64,000 nt of DNA from Lacunisphaera sp. (GCA_029945855.1 JAQSDJ010000324.1:40101-104100), one strand, 5' to 3'. Positions 13,488 to 19,401 are shown, counted from the first letter of the stretch. Program-made: numbers and translations. Notes: a model not told the origin generated them from the sequence alone.

Positions 13488-14384
13488 TCAGAGCATGAAA
13501 TAGTTTTCTTCCATCCCGAGGAACCGCCGGCTGGGCGGGGCATAGACCACGCGCCAGACATCCGCGTAACGGGTCCAGGGACCGGGCACGGGACCGTCGT
13601 AGACCAGCTTGAGCTCCGCCGTGGCCCGGGCCGGCGAACGCAGCCGCTCGAGAAACAGCTCATGGCCTTCATCGAGGGCGAAGAACAGGCTGCGGCGCTC
13701 GAGGGGATGCGCCGTGGCGGGCAGTTGGTCGCGGATCCGGCCGGCATGACTGAGGGCGAACCGGGCCACAACCTGCGCATGCCGCTCCATCTCGATCGCC
13801 GCCTTTCCGCAGGCGGTGTCGAAATCCATTGCCGCCCCGTGGCCGTAGGCGACAAAGCCGGCCTCGGTCCGCTTGAAGAGGATCACCGTGATCCCCGGGG
13901 CCGGCGAGCAGATGGTCGCCGCCCGCATGCCGGGCCAGCGGGTTTCGGACTCGCGGGCGGTCAGCCGCCCCTCCCACCAATTCAGCAGGTTGAACCGCTC
14001 GGCTGCCTCCATCAAGGCGACCTGCCGCGCCTGCCGGCGCCACAGACCCGGAAACGCCGCCAGCCCGTTGCTGGACGGGTCGACATCAAAGCCATATTTG
14101 TGGCGTTCGGGGCCTTGATGCATTTCCCAATGGGCCCAACGCTCCATCGCCTCGGAGATGGCCTTGAACCGCGCCACCATGGGCGACGCGTCGGTGCCGC
14201 TGCCGTTCGCCCGGCTGTAGAGCGAATTACCGTCCCGTTTGCCCGCCAGCTCGCCGATGAGATAGGCGTTGGCCAGGAAACGGCGCTCGCCCAGCACCTG
14301 GGTATCCGCGATTTCCAATCTCTCGATCGGACCGCCCGCGGTCACCAGCACATTCCGATAACGATATGCGGCCAGGCTAAGCAC
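13488..14384 (-). CDS. Compact YcaO-like protein
   Basis: GSGT..A..KAISEAMER, SSNGLAA, ALMEAAERF, GHGAAMDFDTACGKAAIEMER and C-terminal RVVYAP match the ordered YcaO motifs; GTG start 16 nt after the peptide ORF. Confidence 0.8.
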   Translation of the reverse strand: MLSLAAYRYRNVLVTAGGPIERLEIADTQVLGERRFLANAYLIGELAGKRDGNSLYSRANGSGTDASPMVARFKAISEAMERWAHWEMHQGPERHKYGFDVDPSSNGLAAFPGLWRRQARQVALMEAAERFNLLNWWEGRLTARESETRWPGMRAATICSPAPGITVILFKRTEAGFVAYGHGAAMDFDTACGKAAIEMERHAQVVARFALSHAGRIRDQLPATAHPLERRSLFFALDEGHELFLERLRSPARATAELKLVYDGPVPGPWTRYADVWRVVYAPPSRRFLGMEENYFML

Positions 14385-14400: not shown

Positions 14401-14589
14401 TTATTGACCGGTCTCGGGCGTGAAGGCGCAGAACATGACGCAGCCTTCGCAAGGTTCGGCCGACACAAGGACCTTGTTCGAAATGCTGCCCTTGTGCATC
14501 GGATCAAATTTTTCCGCGGCGCCGGTGAGGCCGACATTGAGAAGCAGGCTCGAAGCGAGCCCGGTGAGGGTGTTGTTGATTGAGTTCAT
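14401..14589 (-). CDS. 62-aa Cys-rich peptide, candidate RiPP precursor
   Basis: MNSINNTLTGLASSLLLNVGLTGAAEKFDPMHKGSISNKVLVSAEPCEGCVMFCAFTPETGQ; co-directional with and directly upstream of the YcaO-like gene. Confidence 0.65.
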   Translation of the reverse strand: MNSINNTLTGLASSLLLNVGLTGAAEKFDPMHKGSISNKVLVSAEPCEGCVMFCAFTPETGQ

Positions 14590-14637: not shown

Positions 14638-14681
14638 CCTGAAATGGAGGCGATTCAGGTCGGTCACGCGTGTCACGACCT
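14638..14681. promoter_or_regulatory. Candidate operator palindromes in the divergent peptide/kinase promoter
   Basis: CCTGAA-N10-TTCAGG (14638-14659) overlapping AGGTCG-GT-CACGCGTG-TCA-CGACCT (14657-14681). Confidence 0.35.
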
Positions 14682-14748
14682 CACCTAAAGCAAGGTTTCA
14701 GAGAAAGTTGCTGCGGTGCCGCTGATTAAGCTATTTATCAATGATCCA

Positions 14749-17700
14749 GTGAGCACCGCCGTCCACAGCCCCCGAGCCATCTTGCTGGTCGTGTATTTCG
14801 GATTGGCGTGCCCTTCGTTGTTTGGTTCCTGGGTTAACAAGACAACCGGGCTGCCGTTGGTGGAGAATTTTTCCACCAAGGAATTCGGGCTAGGTGAGAC
14901 CAAGTTGGTCGTCCTACAGGATATCTACGGACGACTGTTTGTCGGCGGACAAGGCTTGCAGGTGTTCGACGGGCAGTCGTGGCGAACCTATCCCGTGGGC
15001 GCCGGTTATTCGCTGATGTCCCTGGCATTCGGACAAGGTAACCGGCTATGGGCCGGGGCGGTCAACGAAGTCGGATACTTTGATGAGGAATCCGTGGGAA
15101 CCTTCAAATATCATTCGCTCGCTTTCCGTCTTCCCAAAGAGCAACTGCCCGTGGGGGAAGTCTTCGGCTGCGCTCAGGTCGGACGCGTGGTTTATTTCGT
15201 CTGTCGGGATAAAATCCTGCGCTGGGATGGCGAAGCCTTCCAGGTCCATTCATTCGCGACCAAAAACCGTCTATATCCCATGAGTCTGGGTGATGAATTT
15301 TGGGTTCAACACGTGGAAACCGGGCTGTATCGGCTGACCGAGGAAGGGGCCCAGCTCGAACTCCCGGCGAACGCCCTGCCAATGGCCGGGATACTCGGAC
15401 TGGTCAAAGATGATGGAGGTATCCTGGTTGCGAGCGGCTACGGACTATTCCGGCCGGGAACGCCGCCCCTCCGGATATCCGACGACCCGCTGACCCGGCA
15501 CATTTCGGACAACCGGCTCTCATCCTTTGCCCCCCTGCCGGGCGGCAACTATGCTTTGGGCACGGTCAACGGCGGCTTGGTGATTGCCAGCAAGGATGGG
15601 CGACCCTTGCGAATTTTGGATACCAGCGACGGCTTGCCCGCCCGCTTTGCGTATTCGTTCCAAACTGACGCCAACGGTTATCTTTGGTGTGCCACACCGA
15701 GCGGGATAATGAACCTCGAGGGCTCCGGGCAGGTAAGTGTGTTCAATGCTCTCAACGGATTGAAAGGCAAGGTTGTCCAATTCATCCGACTGCCCGATTC
15801 CAGGTTGTTCGCCATCACGATGGAGGGAGTCTACCAATTATCCGAAACCCAGACAGATGGAGGGCATTTCCAACCATTGCCGCCGCTCACGGCCACCTAC
15901 AAGCACCTGCTGCCGGTGTCCGGCGGCCTGGTGCTGATGCGCCATGGCGGGGTGGACTTTTATAATGGTTCGACGGTGCGGACAATTCTCCACCTCGACG
16001 GCAATGGCGTGTATTTCGCCATGGCCGCCCGGGCCGAACCCAAAACCCTGTTCATCCTTGAGAACAGAGGTTTATCCCGACTGGTGGAACAATCCGATGG
16101 GGCTTATGCCTACGAACATCTGATGAAGCTGCCAGACTTCGTGCAGTCGATGCATGAGGATGCCAACGGCCGGCTCTGGCTCGGCACCATCGGCGAAGGC
16201 GCGTTCATCTACGACCCGGTCGCCAAGCAGCTCTCCCTCCTCAAGCATCCCGAGACGGGGCACCCCATGTCAGGGCCGGTTTCCATCATCGGCACAACCC
16301 AGGGCATTTTGGTTTTTGCCAACGGCCAGGTGCTCAAGGCCGGGAACGACGGATCACACCTGAAGATCTTGAGTGGCACACCCACGATCAATCCGCTGGT
16401 GATAGTCCCGGCTCCCAACGGACAGGATCTGCTGGTCACCTTTCGGCACATCGCCCCCGCCGACGATTCCACGCAAGGCTTGGGCGTGCTGACCGTCGCA
16501 GCGTCAGGGCAGACCCAGTGGCGCGAATTGGACGTGCCGGCGCTAAACACGGTTGGATTCGTGAACACAATTGCATTCACCGAGGAAAACGGACGGCAGA
16601 TTCTCTGGGTGGGCGGCAATAATGGCGCCCTGCGGCTGGATTACGGTGCACTTAACCCGGTGCAAAGCCCCTCCACGCCGTTCATCCGGCTGGATACGCA
16701 GAATGCGGGATTGGTTTCCGATGCGGACGGTTTTTCGTTCCATTTCAAAAGCCATCATCTGAATTTCCATGTCTTCACGGGCGACCATGTCCGAAGCAAG
16801 GACTGGCTGCTGCAGTCGCGCCTGGCCGGCAGCGAATGGTCGGCCCCGGCGGCGCGGCGCGCGTTTGAATTCAGCAACCTGTCCGAGGGTGACTACCGGT
16901 TCGAGGTCCGCACCGTCAACGCCGCCGGCCTGGCCAGCGAGCCCGCCGTGTTCGCCTTTCGCATTTTGCCGCCGTGGTATCGCTCCACCTGGGCCCTGCT
17001 CGGCTACGCCGCGGCGCTCGTCCTGACGGTCCTGGCCGTCATCCGCATCCGCGAGCGCCGGATCCGCGAGCGCAACGAGGAACTGGAGGGCCTCGTCACG
17101 GTCCGCACCGCCGAGCTGGTGAAGGCCAACGCCGCGAAGGACGAATTCCTCGCGGGCATCAGCCACGAGATCCGCAACCCGATGAACGGCGTCATCGGCA
17201 TCGCCGACAATTTCCGCACCGAAAGCCTCGACCCGGAAAGCCGGCGCAAGTTCGGCCTGCTCCGCCAGTGCGCCACGCACCTGTCCTCGCTGCTGGAGGA
17301 CATCCTGGACTTTTCCAAGGTGCAGGCCGGCGCCGTCGAGATTGAGGCCAGGGTTTTCAACCTGCCCGAGCTGATGGACTCGATCACCGCCATGACGGCC
17401 GCCGAGAGCGAGAAGCGCGGCATCCCCGTCGAGATCGCGGTCTCGCCCGCCGTGCCCGCGCTCCTGGTCGGCGATCCCAAGCGCATCCGGCAAATCCTGC
17501 TGAACTTCGTCAGCAACGCCCTGAAGTTCTCCGGGCGCGGCCAGGTGAGTGTCACCGTCTGGTGCAAGCACCTGCAGCCCGGCTCCACGGAGGTCATTTT
17601 CGCGGTATCCGACGAGGGGCCCGGCATCTCGCCGGAGGAACAGCAGCGGCTCTTCACCCGGTTTGAGCGCGGCGCCGCCGCCCAGCAGGGCCGCGTGCCC

Positions 17701-18621
17701 GGCACCGGCCTCGGCCTGGCCCTCTGCAAGGGCCTCGCGGAAAAAATGGGCGGCCGCATCTGGCTGGAAAGCGAACCAGGCCAGGGCTCGTGCTTCTCGT
17801 TCAGCGCGCCCTTTGCAATTGCCGAGCCCGAGGGCGCCCCGGCCGCCGCCGCCGCCCCCGCCGCTCCGGTCCAGCCGAAAGCGGCGCTGGTCGTGGATGA
17901 CCAGGAATACAACCGCATCGTCCTGGCGGACCTGCTCGAGACCCTGGGCTTTGCCGTGCAGAGCGTCGGGGACGGCACCGCCGCGCTCGCGCTGGCCGAG
18001 CGCGAGGACTTCGACGCGGTTTTCCTCGATTTCAACCTGCCCGGCCTGAGCGGCGTGGACGTGGCCCGCGCCATCCGCGCCCTGCCCAACCGGTCTGCCG
18101 CGGCGGTCATCCTCGCGACCACCGCCTTCAGCACGCCGGAAAAACGCAGCCAGTGCCTGGCGGCCGGCATGAACGCCTTCATCGGCAAGCCGGTGACGAT
18201 GGAGCGGCTGCGGAAAGCCCTGGCCGGCACCATGCCCGGCAGCGCGGTGCCGGTCCCCGCGGCGCCCCGTCCGGCCGTTGACGGGCTCGCCAACCTGCGC
18301 CTGCTCGCGCAAAGGAAACAGGCTTCCTTCGCCGAGGAACTGGCGCTCTACCTGTCCGAGCTCGACGTCGATTTCGACCAGCTCCAAGCCGCCGTCCGGG
18401 CGGAAGATTCCACCGGCACCGCCCGTTGCGCCCACTCGCTCTACGGCCGCTGCGCCTTCATCGCCGAGCGGACGCTCGAGCAGGCGCTGCGGGCGGTCGA
18501 GGCGGACGCCGCCACCGGTCACTGGGACGAGGTGCGCCGGCAGCTGGCCCCGCTGTCCGCCCAGGTGGCGGAGCTGCGCGCCCGGCTTACTTCTTCCGCC
18601 CCAACTGCTCCACCCGCGTGA
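14749..18621 (+). CDS. Hybrid sensor histidine kinase (beta-propeller, Y_Y_Y, TM, HisKA, HATPase, REC, HPt)
   Basis: FSNLSEGDYRFEVRTVN (Y_Y_Y), PWYRSTWALLGY TM, SHEIRNPMNG H-box, NALKF/DEGPGI/GTGLGL boxes, VVDD..FLDFNLPG receiver, AHSLYG HPt; start uncertain (14716 or 14749). Confidence 0.92.
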   Translation: MSTAVHSPRAILLVVYFGLACPSLFGSWVNKTTGLPLVENFSTKEFGLGETKLVVLQDIYGRLFVGGQGLQVFDGQSWRTYPVGAGYSLMSLAFGQGNRLWAGAVNEVGYFDEESVGTFKYHSLAFRLPKEQLPVGEVFGCAQVGRVVYFVCRDKILRWDGEAFQVHSFATKNRLYPMSLGDEFWVQHVETGLYRLTEEGAQLELPANALPMAGILGLVKDDGGILVASGYGLFRPGTPPLRISDDPLTRHISDNRLSSFAPLPGGNYALGTVNGGLVIASKDGRPLRILDTSDGLPARFAYSFQTDANGYLWCATPSGIMNLEGSGQVSVFNALNGLKGKVVQFIRLPDSRLFAITMEGVYQLSETQTDGGHFQPLPPLTATYKHLLPVSGGLVLMRHGGVDFYNGSTVRTILHLDGNGVYFAMAARAEPKTLFILENRGLSRLVEQSDGAYAYEHLMKLPDFVQSMHEDANGRLWLGTIGEGAFIYDPVAKQLSLLKHPETGHPMSGPVSIIGTTQGILVFANGQVLKAGNDGSHLKILSGTPTINPLVIVPAPNGQDLLVTFRHIAPADDSTQGLGVLTVAASGQTQWRELDVPALNTVGFVNTIAFTEENGRQILWVGGNNGALRLDYGALNPVQSPSTPFIRLDTQNAGLVSDADGFSFHFKSHHLNFHVFTGDHVRSKDWLLQSRLAGSEWSAPAARRAFEFSNLSEGDYRFEVRTVNAAGLASEPAVFAFRILPPWYRSTWALLGYAAALVLTVLAVIRIRERRIRERNEELEGLVTVRTAELVKANAAKDEFLAGISHEIRNPMNGVIGIADNFRTESLDPESRRKFGLLRQCATHLSSLLEDILDFSKVQAGAVEIEARVFNLPELMDSITAMTAAESEKRGIPVEIAVSPAVPALLVGDPKRIRQILLNFVSNALKFSGRGQVSVTVWCKHLQPGSTEVIFAVSDEGPGISPEEQQRLFTRFERGAAAQQGRVPGTGLGLALCKGLAEKMGGRIWLESEPGQGSCFSFSAPFAIAEPEGAPAAAAAPAAPVQPKAALVVDDQEYNRIVLADLLETLGFAVQSVGDGTAALALAEREDFDAVFLDFNLPGLSGVDVARAIRALPNRSAAAVILATTAFSTPEKRSQCLAAGMNAFIGKPVTMERLRKALAGTMPGSAVPVPAAPRPAVDGLANLRLLAQRKQASFAEELALYLSELDVDFDQLQAAVRAEDSTGTARCAHSLYGRCAFIAERTLEQALRAVEADAATGHWDEVRRQLAPLSAQVAELRARLTSSAPTAPPA

Positions 18622-19279
18622 GGCCGTTGACGATGGCGTAGTGGATCAGCTTCGGCGTCGTGTGGACGTCGAGCTTGGTCATGATGTCGCGGCGCCGCGA
18701 CTGCACCGTGGCGGGGCTGATGTTCAGCACCGTGGCGATCTCCTCGTCGGTCTTGGATTCGCCGATCATCGAAAGGATGCGGGTCTCGTAGTCGGACAGC
18801 ACACGGATAAACGCCTTGGGGTCGCGGCGGATGCTGGCGCTCGATTCGTTCACGATCGGGGTGTAATAGACACGGCCCGCGAGCACCGCGTGGATCGCCT
18901 CCGTCAGCACCTCCCGGCGCTGCTCGTTCTTGTCCACGAAGCCGTGCAGCCCGATCCGCTGCACCTGCAGCATCGTCCACGGGTCGCGGTGCGAGGAGAT
19001 GGCGAGGATCTTCACCTCGGGCAGCTCGTCGAGGATGGTCTTCGCCAGCTCCAGCCCATCGCCATCGGGCAGCGAGATGTCCAGCAGCACCAGGTCCGAG
19101 CGCTGCGCGCGGATGGCGGCCAGCCCCTCCCGGCAGGTGCCGCAGAGCTGCACCACCTCGAGCCCGAGGTCCCGGCAGTGGAAGTTGAGGAATTCCGCCA
19201 CCAACCGCTGGTCCTCCACCACAATCACGCGGCCGAGACTCGGTCGGTCTCCAATTCCATTTCCGGATTGTGGCTCCAT
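18587..19279 (-). CDS. NarL/LuxR-family response regulator
   Basis: VIVVEDQ..LVLLDISLPDGDG receiver; LSDYETRIL..EIATVLNISPATVQSRRRDIMTKLDV HTH. Confidence 0.93.
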   Translation of the reverse strand: MEPQSGNGIGDRPSLGRVIVVEDQRLVAEFLNFHCRDLGLEVVQLCGTCREGLAAIRAQRSDLVLLDISLPDGDGLELAKTILDELPEVKILAISSHRDPWTMLQVQRIGLHGFVDKNEQRREVLTEAIHAVLAGRVYYTPIVNESSASIRRDPKAFIRVLSDYETRILSMIGESKTDEEIATVLNISPATVQSRRRDIMTKLDVHTTPKLIHYAIVNGLTRVEQLGRKK

Positions 19280-19401
19280 GGTATTGGCTCGTCTCATTGC
19301 ATCGGGGCGCGCAAAAGATATTTCAACGCATGGCGCCACCGGGGGATTTCTCTTCCCCGCGGCTTGCTTCATGTTGTTGTTTTTGGCCCGGATTGCTCAC
19401 G

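What the first reader, a model, noticed from the sequence alone, without database searches (positions are those of the whole stretch)
14749..16860. Sharp GC step inside the kinase gene: swapped sensor domain?
Seen (hand counts): 27/60 GC at 15241-15300 and 28/60 at 16741-16800, versus 48/60 at 16801-16860 and 42/60 at 17041-17100. The step falls near the Y_Y_Y domain, so the sensor and the neighbouring peptide region look foreign or fast-evolving while the kinase core looks native. Established: staphylococcal agr has a hypervariable block covering the peptide and the receptor sensor domain. Inference: an analogous specificity cassette exchanged by recombination.
Basis: partly seen in the sequence, partly recalled or inferred. 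Interest (0 to 1): 0.62.

Follow-up and report, generated by a model that had tools for sequence, protein, structure and literature searches.

The report
Swappable sensor cassette inside a kinase gene
The sharp GC drop inside this Verrucomicrobial sensor-kinase gene marks the edge of a roughly 2-kb sensor module that related bacteria carry in very different versions and exchange by recombination, the pattern known from strain-specific peptide signalling loci of Gram-positive bacteria.

Summary
All four hand counts are exact. In the 1301-aa hybrid kinase (14716-18621, +), third-codon-position GC steps from 0.70 to 0.90 at codon 693 (nt 16795). GC1 and GC2 do not step there.

The step coincides with a recombination junction at codon 694/695. 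Against the closest relative, synonymous divergence is 1.3 in the sensor and 0.09 in the rest. Pairs with a shared history give a ratio of 1-2.

Six syntenic loci are 85-98% identical on both flanks but only 55-70% identical across 14650-16797. Sensor and kinase trees of 40 loci conflict at five or more supported points, and every AU test rejects congruence.

One relative shows a clean 3-kb replacement covering the upstream peptide gene plus the sensor. The sensor has lower GC3 in all 42 orthologous loci. Six other kinases with periplasmic domains and a propeller paralogue in this genome lack the step.

The neighbouring 62-aa peptide has a conserved leader and a hypervariable Cys core.

The ligand is unproven. 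This scan has noted similar AT-rich signal-plus-sensor cassettes on other DNA.

The parts
14650..16797 (+). Hypervariable, low-GC3 sensor cassette. It comprises part of the divergent promoter region, the signal/TM1 anchor (residues 20-37) and the two-propeller periplasmic sensor (codons 1-694).
   Evidence: Nucleotide identity is 55-70% here against 85-98% in both flanks, versus six syntenic loci. Block limits against L031 are codon -22 to 707, and the right limit against L030 is codon 695. GC is 0.579. dS is 1.3 against 0.09-0.20 outside.
16795..16800 (+). Junction where the GC3 changepoint (codon 693) and the recombination breakpoint (codon 694/695) coincide, at the start of the Y_Y_Y domain.
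   Evidence: The codon-level alignment shows 6-15 mismatches per 10 codons up to codon 699, then 1-4.
14716..18621 (+). Hybrid sensor histidine kinase, 1301 aa. Order: Reg_prop propellers, Y_Y_Y (about 688-750), TM2 (759-778, nt 16990-17049), HisKA (807-872), HATPase_c (919-1034), REC (1058-1169), HPt (1209-1288).
   Evidence: Pfam; PDB sequence hits 4A2L and 3V9F; TM positions.
14401..14589 (-). 62-aa RiPP-like precursor gene. The leader (14497-14589) is conserved. The Cys-containing core (14404-14496) is hypervariable.
   Evidence: Present upstream of the kinase in 36 of 42 loci. Core identity dips to 50-64% while the leader stays at 86-98%. Tandem multi-core versions occur in L011, L014 and L049.
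13488..14384 (-). Compact 298-aa YcaO-like gene. It is conserved backbone in the window's group. Its first ~100 codons share the lowered GC3.
   Evidence: Pfam YcaO 27.3 bits (cutoff 25.7), partial. SagD E=1e-3. Identity is 72-96%. GC3 is 0.75 in the first 100 codons and 0.85 in the rest.
18587..19372 (-). Convergent NarL/GerE-type response regulator, the likely partner. Conserved backbone.
   Evidence: Pfam Response_reg plus GerE. Nucleotide identity to relatives is mostly 88-97%, falling to about 73% at 19200-19399 in the more distant loci. Syntenic in all fetched contigs.

Best explanation
The GC step is the right-hand edge of an allelic input cassette of about 2.15 kb. The cassette comprises the promoter-proximal region, the membrane anchor and the two periplasmic beta-propellers of a hybrid histidine kinase. 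Lacunisphaera-like Opitutaceae carry this cassette in many deeply diverged versions on an otherwise conserved backbone. That backbone runs YcaO-like gene, peptide leader, then (after the cassette) Y_Y_Y-TM-HisKA-HATPase-REC-HPt and a NarL-type regulator.

Shown: the alleles are far older than the backbones they sit on, because their synonymous sites are saturated. They are moved between backbones by homologous recombination. The crossovers fall in the conserved flanks. The right-hand one falls at or near the propeller/Y_Y_Y domain boundary, so functional chimeras result.

Inferred: the alleles are kept by balancing or frequency-dependent selection on what the kinase recognises. The most likely ligand is the product of the adjacent hypervariable-core peptide, matured by the YcaO-like enzyme. 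That would give strain 'dialects' as in agr or comQXP.

Inferred: the low GC3 is a by-product. Alleles about 60% identical cannot recombine with each other inside the block. The block therefore escapes the GC-favouring force (biased gene conversion or efficient selection) that holds the recombining backbone at GC3 0.87-0.90. It settles about 0.14 lower. Occasional passage through lower-GC congeners adds to this.
For: Junction and step coincide. The GC3 changepoint is codon 693. The divergence changepoint is codon 695 against L030 and is visible codon by codon.

Synonymous divergence. For window versus L030, sensor dS is 1.32 and cytoplasmic dS is 0.09, a ratio of 14. L032/L033 gives 13.7, L034/L035 gives 11.7 and L011/L049 gives 7.5. 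Congruent pairs give 1.0-2.2. L035 against L036 or L012 gives the reverse, 0.6-0.7.

Mosaic structure. L035 is 95-100% identical to L034 everywhere except about 3 kb. There it is 43-70% identical to L034 and mostly 80-91% identical to L036/L037.

Protein pairs. Among 111 proteins, pairs at least 93% identical in the kinase half are 41-86% identical in the sensor. P0010's sensor is 80-87% identical to a clade whose kinase is only 72-74% identical.

Trees. Five or more supported conflicts exist, and nine AU tests all reject congruence.

Selection. dN/dS is 0.13-0.33 in sensors in all but one pair (L014/L044, 0.48), so they are functional and under purifying selection.

Composition. Sensor GC3 is below cytoplasmic GC3 in all 42 loci, with median difference 0.14. 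It tracks host GC3 with slope 0.70. The HPt domain is as divergent as the sensor (44-53% identity) but keeps GC3 0.82-0.91. Other periplasmic kinase domains in this genome do not dip. Polarised synonymous changes show an S->W excess, not W->S, so the block is not ameliorating upward.

Peptide. The leader is conserved and the core is hypervariable. Core identity follows the sensor and not the kinase: partial r is 0.44 (p=0.0005) against -0.01.

Literature. Recombining bacterial genes have higher GC3 (PMC4450053).
Against: Peptide-sensor coupling is loose. The window and L034 share a near-identical core (0.77) but have sensors only 54% identical. L032 and L038 have sensors 86% identical but cores only 56% identical. 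Peptide class maps almost equally well on both trees, with 11 changes against 13. Physical linkage alone could produce the Mantel signal.

Reg_prop/Y_Y_Y sensors of solved structure bind glycans, not peptides (own knowledge of BT4663; sequence hit).

The gBGC explanation for low GC3 is untested. Terminal-branch changes are AT-biased in both halves.

Most comparison sequences are metagenome contigs or MAGs.
Confidence: 0.75

Rival explanations
1. The cassette is a niche-adaptive environmental sensor, not a pheromone receptor. The propeller alleles would recognise different periplasmic glycans or other external ligands, as HTCS sensors do, and would be exchanged because strains exploit different substrates. 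The adjacent peptide would be regulated output or unrelated.
For: The sensor is homologous to the BT4663-type periplasmic domain (4A2L, 3V9F), which binds glycans (own knowledge). An alginate lyase gene lies 4 kb upstream. Peptide core and sensor are sometimes decoupled, and parsimony is nearly equal on the two trees.
Against: No variable catabolic or transport genes accompany the variable sensor; the flanks are conserved. The peptide core is the only other hypervariable segment in the locus. It was co-transferred with the sensor in L035. It follows the sensor in the L011/L049 and L014/L044 conflicts.
Confidence: 0.3
2. There was a one-off horizontal acquisition of a low-GC sensor from a foreign donor in this genome, followed by slow amelioration (a classical chimeric gene).
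For: Sensor GC3 of 0.70 lies at about the 1st-2nd percentile of this genome's genes. One relative (L058) has sensor GC3 0.43 against 0.77, which does look like an import from a low-GC congener.
Against: The dip is present in all 42 orthologous loci. All sensor relatives in 5.8 billion proteins are alleles of the same gene family, and the nearest is 61% identical. There is no W->S excess as amelioration would require. Synteny is conserved.
Confidence: 0.05
3. The sensor diversified rapidly in place, by relaxed or positive selection or local hypermutation, without recombination. Lower GC3 would simply follow from lower conservation.
For: The sensor is less conserved than the kinase core at the protein level (37-49% against 59-72%).
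Against: dS, not just dN, is 7-14 times higher in discordant pairs and equal in congruent ones. Reciprocal discordance exists: P0010/L035 has a sensor more similar than its kinase. AU tests reject congruence. dN/dS is 0.13-0.33 in all but one pair. HPt is equally divergent but GC3-rich.
Confidence: 0.03
4. The dip is a generic codon-usage property of exported or periplasmic domains (slow translation for export or folding), or an assembly chimera.
For: The boundary lies near the periplasm/membrane transition. Pooled over eight orthologues the GC3 rise is spread over codons 695-790.
Against: Paralogue L003 has 0.88/0.89. Six other periplasmic-domain kinases differ by -0.02 to +0.08. In the window the step sits 65 codons before TM2. 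The pattern recurs in single-contig genomes (G009, G068). In the L035 mosaic, the flanks of the donor-like loci are only 63-89% identical, too low for k-mer chimeras.
Confidence: 0.05

Closest known systems
Bacillus subtilis comQXPA pherotype locus
   Same: The modifying-enzyme gene, pre-peptide gene and sensor kinase gene are adjacent, with a GerE/LuxR-type response regulator. The kinase's N-terminal sensor is highly variable while its cytoplasmic domain and the regulator are conserved (PMC4008528). The variable block is distributed incongruently with strain phylogeny.
   Different: ComP's sensor is a multi-pass membrane domain, whereas here it is a ~700-aa periplasmic double beta-propeller. 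ComQ is an isoprenyl transferase and is itself polymorphic, whereas here the enzyme is YcaO-like and conserved. The genes here are divergent or convergent, not co-directional. The kinase is a hybrid with REC and HPt. The phylum is Verrucomicrobiota (diderm). No functional pherotypes have been shown.
Staphylococcal agrBDCA specificity groups
   Same: The hypervariable region spans the signal-peptide gene and the sensor part of the receptor kinase, with conserved kinase and regulator. Alleles are discrete (PMC10482373).
   Different: There is no sequence homology to AgrB, AgrC or AgrD. In agr the variable block is contiguous and includes part of agrB. Here a conserved leader separates two variable segments and the enzyme is not variable. 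Cross-inhibition is untested.
Bacteroides hybrid two-component system sensors (BT4663, PDB 4A2L/4A2M; 3V9F)
   Same: The periplasmic Reg_prop propellers plus Y_Y_Y domain are followed by TM, HisKA, HATPase and REC.
   Different: There is no C-terminal AraC-type DNA-binding domain. Instead there is an HPt domain and a separate NarL-type regulator. No SusC/D or PUL context is present. Allelic hypervariability with cassette exchange is, to my knowledge, not described for HTCS.

Membership tests
Polymorphic signal-receptor ('pherotype') locus, agr/comQXP kind (defined by evolutionary pattern) | Hypervariable block limited to the receptor's sensor part, with conserved kinase core and regulator | tested here: met
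   Identity is 55-70% at 14650-16797 against 85-98% in the flanks. The kinase half is 96% identical and the sensor 54% identical to P0003.
Polymorphic signal-receptor ('pherotype') locus, agr/comQXP kind (defined by evolutionary pattern) | Variable block has a different history from the backbone (recombinational exchange or ancient alleles) | tested here: met
   dS ratio is 7-14 in discordant pairs against 1-2 in congruent ones. L035 is a mosaic. AU tests give p from 8e-4 to 6e-75.
Polymorphic signal-receptor ('pherotype') locus, agr/comQXP kind (defined by evolutionary pattern) | The mature-signal part of an adjacent precursor gene is hypervariable and co-varies with the sensor | tested here: inconclusive
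   The core is hypervariable and the leader conserved. Partial Mantel r=0.44, p=0.0005, and co-transfer occurred in L035. However, there are decoupled pairs, the parsimony counts are 11 against 13, and linkage is a confounder.
Polymorphic signal-receptor ('pherotype') locus, agr/comQXP kind (defined by evolutionary pattern) | The processing enzyme's specificity region is variable too (AgrB, ComQ) | tested here: not met
   The YcaO-like gene is 72-96% identical across the window's group. Only its first ~380 nt were carried along in the L035 event.
Polymorphic signal-receptor ('pherotype') locus, agr/comQXP kind (defined by evolutionary pattern) | Allele-specific activation of the kinase by its cognate signal | not testable with these tools
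   Needs reporter assays with cognate and non-cognate peptide-sensor pairs.
agr or comQXP by homology | Sequence homology of the receptor sensor and enzyme to AgrC/AgrB or ComP/ComQ | tested here: not met
   Pfam shows Reg_prop, Y_Y_Y, HisKA, HATPase_c, REC and HPt. There is no AgrB, AgrC or polyprenyl-synthase hit.
HTCS-type Reg_prop/Y_Y_Y sensor kinases | Reg_prop repeats plus Y_Y_Y periplasmic domain followed by HisKA-HATPase-REC | tested here: met
   PDB hits 4A2L and 3V9F at E=3e-11.
HTCS-type Reg_prop/Y_Y_Y sensor kinases | Fused C-terminal AraC-type HTH output domain (one-polypeptide system) | tested here: not met
   The C-terminus is an HPt domain. A separate GerE regulator lies downstream.
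YcaO-dependent RiPP cluster | YcaO domain enzyme next to a leader-core precursor with Cys/Ser/Thr in the core | tested here: inconclusive
   YcaO scores 27.3 bits against a cutoff of 25.7, with a partial match only. SagD gives E=1e-3. The precursor pattern is clear in 36 loci, including multi-core forms.

The most novel reading that the evidence does not exclude
This is a peptide-pheromone quorum-sensing system with pherotypes in a diderm phylum (Verrucomicrobiota). A YcaO-modified, Cys-containing RiPP would be read in the periplasm by a double beta-propeller sensor. Peptide core and propeller would diversify together as strain dialects. The GC3 trough would be a general compositional signature of such balanced cassettes that do not recombine internally.
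Probability: 0.3. Interest if true: 0.85.

Novelty: new variant of a known kind. Interest (0 to 1): 0.68.

Why it matters
Hypervariable signal-receptor cassettes are textbook for Gram-positive peptide quorum sensing. They are hardly documented in diderm bacteria or for periplasmic beta-propeller sensors.

This locus makes a concrete, testable case. It offers a defined swap junction (codon 694/695, a natural domain boundary), dozens of natural sensor alleles on near-identical kinase backbones, and an adjacent hypervariable-core peptide as candidate ligand.

It also gives a clean natural experiment on what sets GC3 in a GC-rich genome. Two halves of one gene share expression level and synonymous rate, yet hold different equilibrium composition across 42 lineages. 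That points to recombination-linked forces rather than expression or mutation rate.

In practice, an intragenic GC3 step at a sensor/kinase boundary appears to be a usable search signature for such cassettes.

Tried and rejected
1. My crude gene calls gave many apparent GC3 steps. These were false N-terminal ORF extensions, for example upstream of gyrB. A six-frame coding-score filter removed them.

2. I tested whether lower conservation explains lower GC3. This was rejected, because HPt is as divergent as the sensor but GC3-rich.

3. I tested for a generic periplasmic-domain effect. This was rejected.

4. I looked for upward amelioration of a foreign insert. There is no W->S excess.

5. I searched 5.8 billion proteins for the donor of the window's own sensor allele. 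The nearest is 61% identical, so the allele is unsampled elsewhere.

6. I mapped peptide Cys-pattern classes onto the two trees. The counts of 11 and 13 changes are uninformative, and the classes are noisy.

7. The two-breakpoint scan for L032 against L033 locked onto an indel artefact far upstream. That pair was judged from dS and the trees instead.

8. Tortosa 2001 (PMC94899) is not held.

10. I did not run structure prediction. The protein exceeds the size limit, and domain limits were clear enough from Pfam and PDB sequence matches.

Full report
**Observation.** The four 60-base hand counts are exact. The region lies in one ORF, 14716-18621 (+), of 1301 aa. It is a hybrid sensor kinase. 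Pfam finds Reg_prop and Y_Y_Y in the N-terminal two thirds, followed by HisKA, HATPase_c, Response_reg and HPt. The periplasmic part matches the solved HTCS sensors 4A2L and 3V9F.

Codon-position analysis shows the step is at synonymous sites. GC3 goes from 0.697 to 0.900 at codon 693 (nt 16795), with LLR 43 and a support interval of codons 683-700. GC1 and GC2 have only weak changepoints, about 270 codons further on.

The assembly is 5.0 Mb and 65.9% GC. Names on homologues place it in Lacunisphaera/Opitutaceae. Its median gene GC3 is 0.87 and its 1st percentile is 0.68. The kinase half is therefore typical and the sensor half extreme.

Many apparent steps in other genes were false N-terminal ORF extensions. 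After removing them, this gene has the strongest internal step among long genes whose two segments both look coding.

**What the step is.** I searched 5.8 billion proteins with the kinase half. This returned relatives 96%, 91% and 85% identical in that half. Their sensors are only 54-61% identical.

I fetched their contigs. Synteny is identical in all of them: sigma-54 regulator, PilC/GspF-like gene, 298-aa YcaO-like gene and small ORF on one strand; the kinase on the other; then a convergent GerE regulator, rsmE and so on.

Sliding nucleotide identity to the window is 85-98% on both sides. It falls to 55-70% only between about 14650 and 16797.

Against the closest relative (L030), dS is 1.32 in the sensor and 0.09 in the rest. 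The transition is visible codon by codon at 694/695. That is the GC3 changepoint.

The control matters. Pairs whose two halves share a history give a dS ratio of 1.0-2.2. The difference in codon bias therefore cannot create a 7- to 14-fold excess. One lineage shows the reverse ratio, 0.6-0.7.

**Exchange, not only divergence.** L035 is 95-100% identical to L034 over 10 kb, except for about 3 kb. That stretch covers the first ~380 nt of the YcaO-like gene, the peptide gene, the intergenic region and the sensor up to about codon 745-758. There L035 is 43-70% identical to L034 and mostly 80-91% identical to L036 and L037.

Among 111 full-length proteins, pairs at least 93% identical in the kinase half range from 41% to 86% in the sensor. 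P0010's sensor is closer (80-87%) to a clade than its kinase is (72-74%).

Trees of 40 loci, from species representatives of the genus plus metagenome contigs, conflict at five or more well-supported points: L035; window/L031; L033; L011/L049; L014/L044. For each, I took the clade seen in one half and tested it on the other half. All nine AU tests reject it, with p from 8e-4 to 6e-75.

Right-hand junctions fall between about codons 594 and 758 in different pairs. This is the end of the propellers and the Y_Y_Y domain. In the window the junction sits at the start of Y_Y_Y, 65 codons before TM2.

The sensors are functional. dN/dS is 0.13-0.33 in all but one pair (L014/L044, 0.48). The window's own allele has no relative closer than 61%.

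**Composition.** Sensor GC3 is below cytoplasmic GC3 in all 42 orthologous loci. The difference ranges from 0.03 to 0.35, with median 0.14, and is 0.20 in the window. Sensor GC3 follows the host's value with slope 0.70.

The dip is not a protein-conservation effect, because HPt is as divergent as the sensor yet has GC3 0.82-0.91. It is not a periplasmic-domain effect. Paralogue L003 has 0.88/0.89, and six other kinases differ by -0.02 to +0.08. It is not an insert ameliorating upward, because polarised synonymous singletons show an S->W excess in both halves, and the implied equilibrium is lower in the sensor in five of six groups.

I therefore infer a lower standing equilibrium in the block. 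The most economical cause runs as follows. Alleles about 60% identical cannot recombine with one another inside the block. They therefore miss the recombination-linked GC-favouring force documented for bacteria (PMC4450053). Occasional passage through low-GC congeners adds to this; L058's sensor has GC3 0.43. This step is inference.

**Neighbouring peptide.** Divergent from the kinase lies a 62-aa ORF (14401-14589, -). It has a conserved leader (MNSINNTLTGLASSLLLNVGLT..AEKFDPM) and a hypervariable core ending in C..C...C.FTPE.GQ.

An HMM built from it finds the gene upstream of the kinase in 36 of 42 loci. Three of these have tandemly repeated cores. At fine scale, the core drops to 50-64% identity while the leader stays at 86-98%.

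Core identity correlates with sensor identity when kinase identity is controlled (partial r 0.44, p=0.0005). It does not correlate with kinase identity when sensor identity is controlled (-0.01). In the L035, L011/L049 and L014/L044 conflicts the core type goes with the sensor.

There are clear exceptions, however (window/L034 and L032/L038). A parsimony comparison is uninformative, and linkage is a confounder.

The adjacent 298-aa protein has only marginal YcaO/SagD similarity.

Earlier notes of this scan (e1-5235305, e1-5235304) read this gene set as a modified-peptide signalling cassette. My data add evidence of allelic diversification and exchange. They do not show that the peptide is the ligand.

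**Comparison with known systems.** The pattern matches B. subtilis comQXPA, which has a variable N-terminal ComP, a conserved cytoplasmic domain and a GerE regulator (PMC4008528). It also matches the staphylococcal agr hypervariable region (PMC10482373).

It is not a homologue of either. The sensor is an HTCS-like periplasmic double propeller, the kinase is a HisKA hybrid with HPt, and the enzyme is YcaO-like and not variable. It also lacks the AraC output domain of true HTCS.

The scan has reported AT-rich cassettes covering signal genes plus only the sensor half of a kinase on other DNA (e1-5269773, e1-2459009, e1-5051690 and others). I did not test those.

**Limits.** Most comparison sequences are MAGs or metagenome contigs. 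Against a chimera: the pattern recurs in single-contig genomes, and in the L035 mosaic the flanks of the donor-like loci are too divergent for k-mer chimeras.

**Verdict.** The ligand and the cause of the low GC3 remain inferences.

Noticed in passing
L011, L014, L049 (upstream of the kinase; peptide ORFs listed): In three species the precursor peptide carries tandemly repeated cores: KSSAFSELPCQFS x5, AEGCTWVCNF x2 and AAFCDTVCNF x4. This is a multi-core RiPP-precursor layout.
   Followed up: partly
window 14716-15279: The public gene call for this kinase is 1113 aa (P0002). It starts at an internal Met (residue 189) and so drops the signal anchor and first propeller blades. Orthologues align from residue ~22 and the frame is open, so the long form is right. 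The atypical composition probably misled the caller.
   Followed up: partly
L021-L025 (G014, G017, G005, G015, G004): Low-GC members of the genus (locus GC 0.53-0.57) carry a 572-617-aa kinase 46-53% identical to residues ~750-1301. It has only two TM segments and a short loop in place of the propeller sensor, and no peptide gene. The same kinase core therefore also exists without the sensor.
   Followed up: partly
L058 (G069:C36): This locus has sensor GC3 0.43 against cytoplasmic GC3 0.77, by far the largest step in the family, with aberrant amino-acid make-up. It looks like a recent sensor import from a low-GC congener.
   Followed up: no
G010:C66 and G010:C136: One genome holds two full-length copies of the kinase (59% and 55% identical to the window's). 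This is either a true duplication with two sensor alleles or strain heterogeneity in the bin (contamination 3%).
   Followed up: no
G000:C128:8584-12396 (L002): A paralogous propeller hybrid kinase has low GC3 throughout (0.71/0.72) in a locus of GC 0.595. This is a whole-gene compositional outlier, unlike the half-gene step here.
   Followed up: no
G000:C12:4389-10709: A 2106-aa PEP-CTERM surface protein shows an internal GC3 step (0.59 to 0.82 at codon 634). It is the only other large step with long segments on both sides.
   Followed up: no
window 18587-18621: The kinase and the convergent GerE response-regulator ORF overlap by 35 bp at their 3' ends. The same overlap is seen in all syntenic contigs.
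   Followed up: no
window 16891-17190 (codons 726-825): GC3 peaks at 0.94-0.96 immediately downstream of the junction, higher than in the rest of the kinase half (0.82-0.94). This would fit frequent heteroduplex or conversion tracts at the cassette edge.
   Followed up: no
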